DNA of 64,000 bases, from assembly GCF_009914755.1 (NCBI RefSeq), contig NC_060930.1; one strand, written 5' to 3'. The position numbers and the translations under genes were made by a program. Of the stretch, positions 12,248 through 42,966 are shown in pieces (position 1 is the stretch's first letter; every line of letters starts with the position of its first letter). Source of the stretch: the human T2T-CHM13v2.0 reference genome, Homo sapiens. Below the pieces are notes generated by a model, which saw only the letters and a program-made list of their open reading frames with translations, had not been told where the DNA came from and did not search any database.

Positions 12248-12342
12248 GGCCAGTGGTAGTGGCTCATGTCTGCAATCCCAGAACATTGGGAGGTTGAGAA
12301 GGGTGGATCACCTGAGTCCAGGAGTTTGAGACTAGCCTGGGC
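12248..12342 (+). mobile_element. Alu 5' fragment truncated at a rearrangement junction
   Basis: First ~95 nt of an Alu, then an abrupt switch to antisense ERV leader. Confidence 0.85.
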
Positions 12343-13086
12343 TGGTATCTCATTGGCCACCAGAAACCCAAAAGTCAAGTTGCCTCTTAGAGCACAAACT
12401 AATACTTGTTACCCCAAGGTCAAATGCTCTCTTACAGGACAAACTAACCCTGTATTCAAAAGCCAATAATATCAGGGAGCTGAATCCAAAAAGAGCAGAG
12501 TCCAACCTTACAGGAACTTACAGCCCTAAGGACTCCGTGAGGAAGACAGGGGACCTCAAAAGGGGTAAACAGTGTCTTTCCTGCATCTCTCAAGAGGTCT
12601 TGTGAGTTGCCAACTATGTTCTTAAGGTCCCTTTTTATAGCTACCAGGACTGTCAAAAGACAAAACTGCAACAAACTCAAATATCTTTCTTGGTTTTTAT
12701 CTGTAATTCTAGAATTGGGCAATATTTTATTCTGTAAAATAGGATGAGAGTTCCGATGAGCTGAGCAGAAGAGGCTGGTTTTATAGGTAGAAATAAATTG
12801 AAGAAAGCAGAAACAGAAAACAAAAAGTGATCGGTCATTTCAAAGTTACTTTTCTTGTAAAGGTTAAAGCAAAGGGGAGTTCCTTATCATACTGGCTAAA
12901 ACAGTCCTGCTTGGAGATTTGGCTATTATCTCTCTCTCGATGTCTTGGAAGGTCATATAAAACTCTTAGTAGCTTGGTGGCATGAAACTTCAGCATAAGT
13001 AATCCCATTTTGGTTTGGTTTGGTTTGTTGGGCGTAGTGTAGGAGCTTAGTCCAAACCAATGGCCTCCTATAACATTTATTTAACA
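12341..13086 (-). mobile_element. MER93-like 5' LTR (12651-13086) with PBS-side leader (12341-12650)
   Basis: tgtcaaaagacaaaa...tttaaca; PBS-like TGG (ctaccaggac on +) next to LTR; outer flank acac at 13087-13090. Confidence 0.75.
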
Positions 13087-13230
13087 ACACTTTACTTGTA
13101 TTATATCATCTTGTTCATTCAACAACCACTGAGGGGATAGAATAATTTATACAAGGTCATATAGTGATGGAGAAGATTTTCAACCAAGATTTTTCTGATT
13201 ACAGAGCCTGTGCTTTTCATCAGTGCAACA
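13087..13230 (-). mobile_element. MIR (the part beyond the provirus insertion site)
   Basis: cactttacttgtattatatcat...aacaacc...caaggtcatatag...agagcctgtgcttttc. Confidence 0.6.
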
Positions 13231-13293
13231 TTTTTTTCCCAACTTTGTTTGCTCATAAGGTACATGTTATGCAGATTTCTAGGCCTCTTTCTT

Positions 13294-13393
13294 TTTTTTA
13301 ATTAATTAATTAATTAATTATTATTATTATTATACTTTAAGTTTTAGGGTACATGTGCACAATGTGCAGGTTAGTTACATATGTATACATGTG
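13294..13393 (-). mobile_element. Very short L1PA 3' fragment
   Basis: ~70 nt of L1 3' end plus (TTAA)/(TTA) tail; 16-bp TSD tctaggcctctttctt at 13278-13293 and 13394-13409. Confidence 0.9.
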
Positions 13394-40550: not shown

Positions 40551-41067
40551 TTTTTTTTCTGAAACATAATTTTTCTCTTAGCAGTCACCCCCATTTCTAC
40601 CAAAGATAATCAAAGTAAAACTAACTTGTTTGAGCTGAATCAAACTTGGCCTGATTATTTACTTAAGTACAGCCGGAATAGTGATTCACCACATAGGCTC
40701 TTTTAAAGTTTGCTTTGCTGGAACTTTGGATAAGAAATTTCAGAGAGAACTTGCAAAAGCCTCTCAAGGATAGGAAACCAAACCAATATTTCCAGTTGTA
40801 TCCTGTTATAAAGAGAATGAGTTCTTTTTGAACTTGTACAAATAACTGTATTGCCATAAAAATAAGAACATTCATGAGTAGTTTCTGAATTCTGGAGGGA
40901 TCATGTCGAGAGAAAAAGTAAATATTTCAATTTTATTCACAAGAGTATACTTATACTTTACCATATAGCTGTGATCTATAGATAGCTTAAAAGGAAAAAT
41001 GTTTCCTGGAAAACCAAAGAACCAGCAAAATTTCAAATAAAAAACTCAGAAAAATCCATAATTCTTC

Positions 41068-41605
41068 TTTTTATTTTATTTTATTTTTTTATTATACTTT
41101 AAGTTCTAGGGTACATGTGCACAATGTACAGTTTTGATACATAGGTATACATGTGCCATGTTGGTTTGCTGCACCCATCAACTCGTCATTTACATTACAT
41201 TAGGTATTTCTCCTAGTGCTATCCCTCCCCCAGCACCCCCCACCCCCGACAGGCCCTGGTGTGTGATGTTCCCCGTCCTGTGTCCAAGTGATCTCATTGT
41301 TCAATTTCCACCTATGAGTGAGAACATGCAGTGTTTGGTTTTCTGTCCTTGTGATAGTTTGCTGAGAATGATGGTTTCGAGCTTCATCCATGTCCCTGCA
41401 AATGACGTGAATTCATCCTTTTTTGTGGCCGCATAGTATTCCATGGTGTATATGTGCCACATTTTCTTAATCTAGTCTATCATTGATGGACATTTAGGTT
41501 GGTTCCAAGTCTTTGCTATTGTGAATAGCTCACGGCAGCTTTGAACTTCTGGGCTCAAGTGATCCTTCTGCCTCAGACTTCTGAGTATCAGGACTACAAG
41601 TGCAT
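41068..41605 (-). mobile_element. L1PA 3' fragment (41068-41528) joined to an AluJ fragment
   Basis: gctattgtgaata|gctcacggcagc junction. Confidence 0.85.
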
Positions 41606-41867
41606 CACTTTTTTTTTTTGACAATACTTCTCATATAACATATCAAACAAGACGGATTAACATGCTCTTTTAAAATTGTAAATGTTCAGTGTTTTCCGGG
41701 GGCTGAACTGGAAAGTCCTGAAGTTAATTTCAGGTCAAAAAAGACTTAATTTAGGATTTAATTTTGGGAAGTTTGTCCAAAATGTTAAAAGTTGAAAAAC
41801 ATTTATTATAGTTGTTTATTTAATCAGAGTGACACTATCAGATTTTTATGGCAAATATAGAAGTTTA

Positions 41868-42503
41868 TGTTACAGGTAGGTAGGCAGACAGGGCTTTCCC
41901 ACTCACTAGGAATTTTGGGTGATGGTTTGACAATTATCACATTGTCTGTCTAAAAGTGATAAACTGGCAGCTGGCACCAGGGAGAGGCCATTTTCTGATG
42001 GTTTACACCTGTTGTGCTAAAGTATTAATTGAATGCAAGTGCCACAGAGAAGCAACTTCCTGGGCATGCACATTAAAAGACAAATGGTGGATTATGACCT
42101 TTCAAGGGTACGACACCAGAAAAAGGAGGAAACCCTGAGATGGGCATGCATAAAACTTCCTAAGCACACTGCATGTGCTCACTTTCCAAGGCTAAATAGG
42201 GCACTGTGCATGAGGGCAGCCCCCGCTAAGGGAAGACTCATGGGAAAGGACAGCCTGTAAAATCCTAGGATCACAGATAAACAGGGCACTTGTCCTTCAA
42301 GTTGCCCTCTTGGGTCTCTTCCAAGCGTACTTTCCTTTCTTTCCTGTTCTAAAGCTTTTTAAAACAAAACATCCACACCTTGCTCTCTTTTTTTGCCTTA
42401 TGGCCTTCAGTCGAATTCTTTCTTCTAAGGAGGCAAGAATTGAGGTTGCTGCAGACCCATATGGATTTACCACCAGTAACACAGATACCTTCCACCAGTA
42501 ATA
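41868..42503 (+). mobile_element. MER66-like ERV1 solo LTR
   Basis: tgttacaggtag...gaggcaagaattgaggttgctgcagaccc...ccagtaata; imperfect TSD ttta/gtta. Confidence 0.6.
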
Positions 42504-42966
42504 GTTACAGAGTTGTGAGCAAAAACCTCATTCTTTTGATATTGAGAAGACTCACTTTTTAAACAAATATCAAAGAACTGATAAAAGACAGCACAAAGCA
42601 CAAGAAATTATCTTGATAAAACACAAAATCTTTTTTTCCTAGCCAATTACCTAAAAGGTAAAGAAAAACCTTTCACTATTTTCTATTAAGAGCAGATCAA
42701 TATTCCAAGAAAACCTTGTTTTAACATACAGAACCAAATTCTAGTTTTGCATCAGTGTACTTTTGATATTAATTCTCATTTTTTAGAAAAAACTTAGAAC
42801 TTTTTTCATAATCTTAGCCAGTTTGATTGCACATAAAAATTCTTTCACAAGATTCATTTTTCACAAATGTTTTACAACTTTCTTATCCATTCAATTTTTG
42901 CCCTATATTTTCTTATTTTTCATCTCGAAACAACTACTCTACTTTATGACAAAAATTACTCTCTTT

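What the first reader, a model, noticed from the sequence alone, without database searches (positions are those of the whole stretch)
12341..42966. One provirus turned inside out: paired LTRs with matching TSD lie in swapped order 26 kb apart
Seen: two homologous minus-strand LTRs. 12651-13086 has the PBS-side leader on its LEFT (a 5' LTR). 39162-39595 has the PPT and internal sequence on its RIGHT (a 3' LTR). An intact minus-strand provirus would have the opposite order with the internal region between the LTRs. Both outer flanks read ACAC (39158-39161 and 13087-13090), the 4-bp TSD size typical of ERV1. Joining the flanks gives tttgagcatttatatgtacagACACtttacttgtattatatcat, a continuous MIR-like sequence. 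Inference: a single integration whose flanking blocks were later permuted, a fossil complex rearrangement that flat repeat annotation would list as unrelated fragments.
Basis: partly seen in the sequence, partly recalled or inferred. Interest (0 to 1): 0.85.

Follow-up and report, generated by a model that had tools for sequence, protein, structure and literature searches.

The report
One old provirus, shattered and reshuffled
Two retroviral end-repeats 26 kb apart on human chromosome 6 belong to one ancient insertion whose body was later broken into four pieces and put back in the wrong order and orientation, a harmless fossil of a complex rearrangement in a gene desert.

Summary
LTR1 (12651-13086) and LTR2 (39162-39595) are minus-strand copies of one roughly 435-bp LTR family. 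Each is the other's best match in the whole genome (81% against at most 79%). They form the only strongly supported pair (99/99) in a tree of 39 copies. Both carry the outer flank ACAC, and 4 bp is the family's target-duplication size. LTR1 has the leader on its left and LTR2 has the polypurine tract and 3' interior on its right, so the element is inside out.

The piece that follows the leader in other copies (b, 10897-11926) lies next to the leader but inverted. The next piece (c/e, 43284-44402) lies next to the 3' interior, also inverted. The four pieces abut in family coordinates: about 28 nt are missing at a|b, none at b|c, and about 0.2-0.5 kb at e|d. Each piece occurs once in the window.

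This is one integration, about 43 Myr old from LTR divergence, followed by a rearrangement with at least five new junctions. That needs at least four simple inversions. Alu, L1 and U4 copies sit at the junctions.

I could not test whether the flanks form one continuous MIR, and no outgroup genomes were available.

The parts
10451..10896 (+). L1 3'-end fragment with poly(A) that directly abuts the 5' end of piece b. No target-site duplication was seen around it.
   Evidence: Read; self-matches to other L1 3' ends.
10897..11926 (+). Piece b of the element, the part that follows the leader in other copies. Here it is inverted relative to the leader. It carries an inserted Alu at about 11527-11770.
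   Evidence: in 8 of 8 other copies that hold both a and b, the two are co-oriented; b starts 28 nt after a ends in 3 of 3 references.
11928..12236 (+). Younger Alu with its own 10-bp duplication agaaaaactg (11918-11927 and 12237-12246). This is an ordinary later insertion.
   Evidence: Read.
12247..12342 (+). A 96-nt 5' fragment of an older Alu with no tail, sitting between the 3' end of b and the 3' end of the leader.
   Evidence: It is only 73% identical to the 5' part of the Alu at 42968, ranking about 22nd among the window's Alus.
12343..12650 (-). Piece a, the leader next to the 5' LTR. A PBS-like TGG motif lies 4 nt after the LTR.
12651..13086 (-). LTR1, the 5' LTR.
13087..13090 (.). 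acac, the outer flank of LTR1 and one copy of the 4-bp target duplication.
13091..39157 (.). The 26 kb now enclosed between the two outer LTR ends. It holds a diverged related internal region (minus, 15403-19329), an HSP90AB1 cDNA fragment (24100-24853), an Alu (24854-25138), a second plus-strand fragment of the same internal region (25146-27884) and SMIM11P1 with its own duplication.
39158..39161 (.). acac, the outer flank of LTR2 and the second copy of the target duplication.
39162..39595 (-). LTR2, the 3' LTR.
39596..42967 (-). Piece d, the 3' interior with the polypurine tract at 39596-39607. It is collinear with another copy (L085 6427-9434). Later inserts: an Alu at 40320-40554, an L1 fragment at 41068-41528 and an abundant 620-bp repeat at 41883-42501.
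42968..43283 (+). Full-length Alu. Its 5' end abuts the 5' end of d and its A-tail abuts the 5' end of c.
43284..44402 (+). Piece c/e, the part that follows b in other copies. Here it is inverted relative to d.
   Evidence: In 8 of 8 other copies found in both, c/e and d lie on one strand, 0.48-0.78 kb apart.
44403..47849 (+). U4 snRNA pseudogene (44403-44575) fused to the 5' part of a sense L1 that stops inside ORF2. It fills the junction after e.
   Evidence: Annotation given with the finding.
47850..48238 (+). The 3' part of a related but different LTR. It may be the remnant 3' LTR of the plus-strand fragment at 25146-27884.
   Evidence: (63-68% identity to family LTRs).

Best explanation
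One non-coding, ERV1-like LTR element of about 6.5 kb integrated once, in minus orientation, and made the 4-bp duplication ACAC. LTR divergence puts this at roughly 43 Myr ago.

Later the locus was cut at five or more places, three of them inside the element (a|b, b|c, e|d). The retained pieces were rejoined as: b (inverted) - leader + 5' LTR + right-hand host block ... left-hand host block + 3' LTR + d - c/e (inverted). About 28 nt were lost at a|b and about 0.2-0.5 kb at e|d.

Shown: the identity of the pieces, their strands, that each occurs once, that they abut in family coordinates, and the LTR pairing.

Inferred: that the host blocks were permuted; that this took one multi-break event or a few steps; and that retrotransposition was involved, as suggested by A-tailed L1 or Alu copies and a U4-L1 chimera at the junctions.
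For: LTR pairing:
- Reciprocal best hits, 81% against at most 79% (968 candidates, 40 scored; 739 candidates, 40 scored).
- The only starred clade among 39 LTRs, 99/99, with a shared branch of 0.051 and tips of 0.10 and 0.11.
- 16 shared derived sites over positions 13-405, the top of 741 pairs.

Target duplication:
- ACAC on both outer flanks.
- Family duplications are 4 bp: 8 of 32 exact and 10 of 32 at 3 of 4, against 5 and 29 of 640 in shifted controls.

Polarity: leader to the left of LTR1 and PPT plus 3' interior to the right of LTR2.

Complementary pieces:
- a and b are co-oriented in 8 of 8 other copies but opposed here.
- a and c are co-oriented in 4 of 4 copies.
- c/e and d lie on one strand in 8 of 8 copies.
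- a ends 28 nt before b starts in 3 of 3 references.
- b and c are contiguous in 2 of 2 references.
- a and b have no second copy in the window. c/e has none either, apart from one stray 61-nt match.

The K2P distance is 0.19 over 429 sites. The arrangement needs at least 4 inversions.
Against: - No outgroup genome or empty site could be examined, so the ancestral order is inferred, not seen.
- The MIR continuity of the flanks could not be tested.
- The window holds at least two more fragments of the same or a related family (25146-27884 plus strand; 15403-19329 minus strand) and a related LTR at 47850-48238. The inverted pieces b and c/e could in principle come from another provirus.
- About 0.2-0.5 kb between e and d is unaccounted for.
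- The margin of LTR identity is small (81% against 79%), and only 39 of at least 968 candidate LTRs entered the tree.
- No junction inside the 26 kb was located.
- The Alu 5' fragment at 12247 and the full Alu at 42968 are not parts of one Alu, so the b|c break needs an extra assumption: two Alus at that site, or an Alu-Alu exchange.
Confidence: 0.72

Rival explanations
1. Two or three independent proviruses of one family landed near each other and were each truncated. LTR1 + a belongs to one, LTR2 + d to another, and b and c/e to a plus-strand copy whose 3' LTR remnant is at 47850-48238.
For: The window does hold an independent plus-strand fragment of the same interior at 25146-27884. It is 77% identical to d, no closer than either is to copy L085 at 80-82%. 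It also holds a diverged minus-strand relative and a related plus-strand LTR just after c/e.
Against: This requires several coincidences at once:
- sister LTRs at 99/99;
- an identical 4-bp flank (chance about 0.4-0.8%);
- pieces that abut within 0-28 nt at two boundaries, without overlap;
- a, b and c/e each occurring only once.

Even under this reading, LTR1 and LTR2 stay inside out if they are a pair.
Confidence: 0.12
2. The LTRs are from different insertions and look like sisters only because ectopic gene conversion between linked LTRs homogenised them.
For: Gene conversion among human LTRs is documented and favoured by linkage. PMC4921805 (passages read) reports maximum tracts of 14-450 bp, averaging 99 bp.
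Against: The 16 shared derived sites span positions 13-405 of 436, longer than almost any reported tract. Conversion explains neither the matching ACAC flank nor the complementary internal pieces.
Confidence: 0.05
3. The order is an assembly artefact of T2T-CHM13.
For: Nothing in my calls points to this. It is kept only because no second assembly or reads could be examined.
Against: The junctions are old. A younger Alu with an intact 10-bp duplication sits on the b/Alu-fragment junction. The pieces are about 20% diverged from each other. The region is ordinary interspersed-repeat DNA, not satellite.
Confidence: 0.02

Closest known systems
HERV proviruses as markers of ectopic recombination and rearrangement (Hughes & Coffin 2001 and 2005). 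I saw the titles only, in the reference list of PMC4921805. The content is recalled, and PMC1456821 is not held.
   Same: The logic is the same. The two LTRs of a provirus are identical at integration and share a target duplication, so LTR phylogeny plus flanking duplications reveal later rearrangement.
   Different: As I recall it, those cases are proviruses whose LTRs do not pair or whose duplications do not match, because two elements recombined. Here the LTRs pair and the duplications match, but the element is inside out, and two internal pieces are inverted.
L1-associated rearrangements and endonuclease-independent L1 insertion. PMC11702581: abstract and introduction read. PMC1920257: abstract and outline read.
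   Same: Retroelement copies sit at junctions without a target duplication. A-tails abut a broken end, and the other end is joined to non-contiguous DNA. One L1 is 3'-truncated. There are local inversions, and ends that were once distant are joined.
   Different: Those reports concern cell models, cancers or recent human-specific loci. This would be a fixed germline event tens of Myr old. The link to L1 rests only on what lies at the junctions, and a canonical Alu or L1 insertion before the breaks would explain part of it.
Chromothripsis-like or complex germline rearrangement (general knowledge, recalled).
   Same: Several clustered breaks, pieces rejoined in scrambled order and orientation, small losses, and no gain of copies.
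   Different: The scale is tiny (about 37 kb, four retained pieces). A single event cannot be shown.

Membership tests
ERV1-class LTR element (provirus-like) | Paired LTRs with TG...CA ends | tested here: met
   On the sense strand LTR1 begins TG and ends CA. LTR2 begins TA and ends TA, which are decayed ends. Family copies mostly begin TGTTAA and end TTGACA.
ERV1-class LTR element (provirus-like) | 4-bp target-site duplication | tested here: met
   8 of 32 family copies are exact and 10 of 32 match at 3 of 4. Shifted controls give 5 and 29 of 640. This element has ACAC/ACAC.
ERV1-class LTR element (provirus-like) | Polypurine tract before the 3' LTR and primer-binding site after the 5' LTR | tested here: inconclusive
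   The purine-rich tract is clear at 39596-39607. A TGG-initiated motif lies 4 nt after LTR1, but I did not match it to any tRNA.
ERV1-class LTR element (provirus-like) | gag, pol or env coding remnants | tested here: not met
   0 of 23 stop-to-stop ORFs of at least 35 aa from the pieces hit a retroviral Pfam family. The only hit was NPCC at E=0.21. The element is either non-autonomous or too decayed.
ERV1-class LTR element (provirus-like) | Assignment to a named Dfam or Repbase family | not testable with these tools
   No repeat library was available.
Single-event multi-break rearrangement (chromothripsis-like) | Several clustered breakpoints with scrambled order and orientation, and no copy gain | tested here: met
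   There are five new junctions. The block order 1 2 3 4 became -3 4 1 -2, which needs at least 4 inversions. a and b have no second copy in the window, and c/e has none apart from one stray 61-nt match.
Single-event multi-break rearrangement (chromothripsis-like) | All junctions formed at one time | not testable with these tools
   This needs outgroup genomes that carry some or none of the junctions.
L1-mediated rearrangement | Retrotransposed sequence at junctions, tail at one broken end, no flanking duplication | tested here: inconclusive
   The L1 tail abuts b, with no duplication seen. The Alu tail abuts c while its 5' end abuts d. The U4-L1 copy is 3'-truncated. Against this, an 11-nt A-rich repeat at the end of b and the start of c (9 of 11 identical, single in reference L075) fits an ordinary Alu insertion before the break.
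MIR (flanking host repeat) | Both flanks align to adjacent positions of the MIR consensus | not testable with these tools
   No MIR copy could be retrieved.

The most novel reading that the evidence does not exclude
The locus is a fossil of a single germline multi-break event driven by the L1 machinery. Breaks arose at A-rich sites inside the element and at two distal sites, and the ends were primed or patched with L1, Alu and U4-L1 cDNA and then misjoined. The result was fixed in an anthropoid ancestor. It can be read today only because a provirus carries a built-in barcode: paired LTRs plus a target duplication.
Probability: 0.2. Interest if true: 0.6.

Novelty: new member of a known kind. 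Interest (0 to 1): 0.4.

Why it matters
It has no functional consequence that I can see. The locus lies in a gene desert and the element has no recognisable genes.

Its value is methodological and historical. A provirus is a self-dating, self-orienting marker, so a scrambled one records an old complex rearrangement at base-pair resolution, including what was used to patch the breaks. Flat repeat annotation would list the pieces as unrelated fragments.

If the retroelement-patched junctions prove to be one event, this would be a rare fixed germline example of the L1-associated rearrangements now described in cell models.

Tried and rejected
MIR continuity of the flanks, all without result:
- nhmmer and relaxed blastn of both flanks against 321,754 bases (window plus fetched loci) found only the flanks themselves, plus four weak blastn matches for the left flank. 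The best was 61 nt, 70% identical, E=0.003, at 13912-13971.
- An iterated profile from a candidate old repeat turned out to be an unrelated 271-nt family and did not hit the flanks.
- Of 12 further seeds, 0 gave a profile that hit the flanks.
- A short recalled core motif found 1 hit at 2 or fewer mismatches and only noise at 5 or fewer edits.
- A genome search with 13087-13230 returned 1 candidate, itself.
- Rfam gave nothing near a gathering score.

Other dead ends:
- Staggered-break duplication of one Alu at b|c is rejected. The 96-nt fragment is only 73% identical to the 5' part of the Alu at 42968. Comparing the Alu halves by age was uninformative.
- SMIM11P1 as a junction patch is rejected. 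It has an ordinary duplication of about 12 bp.
- The plus-strand fragment at 25146-27884 as a duplicate of d made during the event has no support. It is no closer to d than to an unrelated copy.
- A search with 41529-42967 was swamped by an unrelated 620-bp repeat.
Later mapping therefore used coordinates only.
- I found no route of one or two simple events to the present order (and hand reasoning).
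Full report
**What is at the given coordinates**

- On the + strand, 12651-13086 and 39162-39595 are two copies of one repeat, both in minus orientation. They are 81.5% identical over 437 columns, and the window holds no third full copy.
- Read on the minus strand, LTR1 begins TG and ends CA.
- To the right of LTR2 on the + strand lies gttccccctttt (39596-39607), the complement of a polypurine tract. 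It is followed by sequence that is collinear with the 3' interior of another copy of the family: L085 6427-9434 matches window 42967 down to 39610, and L085's 3' LTR matches LTR2.
- To the left of LTR1 lies a 306-nt leader. In other copies the same leader follows the 5' LTR directly.
- LTR1 is therefore a 5' LTR and LTR2 a 3' LTR of minus-strand polarity, and they stand in the wrong order.
- Their outer flanks are both acac (13087-13090 and 39158-39161).

**Are the two LTRs a pair?**

- A genome-wide search with LTR1 (968 candidates, 40 scored) gives LTR2 as the best non-self match, 81% against 78% for the next.
- The reverse search with LTR2 (739 candidates, 40 scored) gives LTR1, 81% against 79%.
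- I built a maximum-likelihood tree of the 39 distinct LTRs fetched as the best hits of either query. The family is a star, and the only strongly supported clade is LTR1 + LTR2: support 99/99, shared branch 0.051, tips 0.10 and 0.11. The bootstrap had not fully settled.
- The two share 16 derived sites spread over positions 13-405 of the LTR. That is the highest count among 741 pairs; the next has 11 and the median is 4.
- The family makes 4-bp target duplications. Of 32 copies with both ends aligned, 8 have identical 4-mers on the two sides and 10 match at 3 of 4. Shifted controls give 5 and 29 of 640.
- The K2P distance between the LTRs is 0.19 over 429 sites. That is about 43 Myr at 2.2e-9 per site per year, and 32-95 Myr for rates of 3e-9 to 1e-9.

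**The rest of the element**

Other copies show the sense order LTR - a (leader) - b - c/e - [about 0.2-0.5 kb] - d - LTR.

- Copies holding the 5' LTR and leader: L074-L084.
- Copy holding the 3' half: L085.

In the window the pieces lie as follows:

| Piece | Window position | Strand |
|---|---|---|
| b | 10897-11926 | + |
| a | 12343-12650 | - |
| d | 39596-42967 | - |
| c/e | 43284-44402 | + |

- a and b are co-oriented in all 8 loci that hold both (L074-L079, L081, L082). a and c are co-oriented in all 4 that hold both (L075, L076, L078, L083).
- In all 8 genomic copies that appear in both the c/e search and the d search within 2 kb, the two lie on one strand with c/e 0.48-0.78 kb upstream of d.
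- Here b is inverted next to a, and c/e is inverted next to d.

The pieces abut in family coordinates:

- In 3 of 3 references, a ends 28 nt before b begins.
- In 2 of 2 references, the end of b and the start of c are contiguous.
- c/e ends at L085 5622 and d starts at L085 6427. After an Alu in L085 is removed, about 0.5 kb is unaccounted for. By coordinates in the closest copy it may be as little as about 0.17 kb.
- A relaxed search finds no second copy of a or b in the window. For c/e it found only one stray 61-nt match.

Four fragments on two strands therefore add up to one element with almost no overlap or gap. This argues strongly against several independent proviruses.

No retroviral protein domain was found in 23 ORFs of the pieces. 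The element is non-coding or fully decayed.

**What lies at the junctions**

- Left of b: an L1 3'-end fragment (10451-10896) whose poly(A) touches the first base of b. I saw no duplication around it.
- Between b and a: three bases, then a younger Alu with an intact 10-bp duplication (an ordinary later insertion), then a 96-nt tail-less 5' fragment of an older Alu that ends at the 3' end of a.
- Between d and c: a full-length Alu whose 5' end touches the 5' end of d and whose A-tail touches c.
- At the b|c boundary: an 11-nt A-rich string stands at the end of b and, 9 of 11 identical, at the start of c. Reference L075 has it once. This looks like the duplication of an Alu that inserted at b|c before the pieces were separated, although it could be part of the Alu tail.
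- The Alu fragment and the full Alu are not parts of one Alu (73% identity, rank about 22). Either two Alus sat at that site or an Alu-Alu exchange took place.
- Right of c/e: the U4 pseudogene fused to the 5' part of a sense L1 that stops inside ORF2 at about 47849. After it comes the 3' part of a related but different LTR in plus orientation.

**The 26 kb between the LTRs is not plain host DNA**

- A diverged relative of piece d lies in minus orientation at 15403-19329.
- A second fragment of the same interior lies in plus orientation at 25146-27884, matching L085 6297-7937.
- That second fragment overlaps d in family coordinates. It is 77% identical to d, while each of the two is 80-82% identical to L085. 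It is therefore an independent copy, not a duplicate made during the event.
- It is preceded by an internal, tail-less fragment of HSP90AB1 cDNA and by an Alu whose tail abuts it.
- SMIM11P1 to its right has an ordinary duplication of about 12 bp.
- The plus-strand fragment and the plus-strand LTR remnant at 47850 could be the two ends of one related provirus, split by the block 27885-47849. If so, the right outer flank would be the original right neighbour. This is conjecture.

**Model**

- Call the blocks 1 (left host + 3' LTR + d), 2 (c/e), 3 (b) and 4 (a + 5' LTR + right host). The ancestral order 1 2 3 4 has become -3 4 1 -2.
- This needs at least 4 simple inversions whichever way the outer flanks are oriented, or one transposition plus two small inversions. 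It creates five new junctions.
- I could find no route of one or two simple events.
- The simplest description is a multi-break rearrangement with small losses, either in one event or in a few steps.
- The A-tailed L1 and Alu copies at broken ends, the tail-less Alu piece and the 3'-truncated U4-L1 recall L1-associated rearrangement and endonuclease-independent insertion at breaks (PMC11702581, abstract and introduction; PMC1920257, abstract and outline). Ordinary insertions before the breaks explain part of the same picture, so I hold this loosely.

**Rivals**

- Independent proviruses would need sister LTRs, an identical 4-bp flank and two precise abutments to arise by chance.
- Gene conversion between linked LTRs is real (PMC4921805, passages read). 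It would need a tract of about 390 nt or more, and it explains neither the flank nor the pieces.
- Misassembly is unlikely, because an old Alu with an intact duplication sits on one junction.

**Not done**

- I could not test the MIR continuity of the flanks. Every attempt to retrieve MIR copies failed. From recall, the flanks do resemble neighbouring parts of MIR.
- No outgroup genomes, no repeat library and no second human assembly were available.
- The junction inside the 26 kb was not located.
- My one relevant literature search (75 papers held at least 5 of the 6 terms, 15 listed) showed nothing on this locus among the 15 listed titles. I did not search for the locus itself, so I make no claim that it is unpublished.

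Noticed in passing
window 44403-47849: RNU4-72P is fused head-on to the 5' part of a sense L1 (5699 genome candidates for 44576-45078, at 85-88% identity). This resembles a snRNA-L1 chimeric retrocopy, but the L1 stops inside ORF2 with no tail.
   Followed up: partly
window 24100-25138: The annotated HSP90AB1 pseudogene is an internal cDNA fragment with neither the 5' end nor a poly(A). Its 3' end abuts an Alu for which I saw no duplication. That Alu's tail abuts the second ERV fragment.
   Followed up: partly
window 28026-28910: SMIM11P1 (minus strand, with a later Alu at 28117-28415) is flanked by a duplication of about 12 bp that matches at 11 of 12 positions. It is an ordinary processed pseudogene.
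   Followed up: yes
window 25146-27884 and 15403-19329: Two further fragments of the same or a related ERV interior lie here, one on the plus strand and one diverged on the minus strand. This is an unusual local cluster for a family with about 1000 LTR candidates genome-wide.
   Followed up: partly
window 41883-42501: A repeat of about 620 bp is inserted in piece d. It is very abundant: 3280 candidates at 74-80% identity among the 40 scored.
   Followed up: no
window 14423-14599 and 23622-23804: A direct repeat pair, 77% identical over 183 columns, brackets the diverged minus-strand ERV interior. These could be its LTRs.
   Followed up: no
window 9246-10068 and 10451-10896: Two L1 3' ends in opposite orientation, 92% identical over 443 columns, are separated by an Alu that has a duplication of about 17 bp.
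   Followed up: partly
window 4241-4462, 31090-31274, 59017-59264 and others: A repeat family of about 271 nt has 21 hits in 321,754 bases (window plus fetched loci). By recall it looks like a Tigger/MER2-type DNA transposon end.
   Followed up: no
G000:C2:151695313-151695745 (+) and C2:151832214-151832651 (-): Two LTRs of the same family lie 137 kb apart in opposite orientation. Both are among the best hits of both queries, but they are not sisters in the tree.
   Followed up: no
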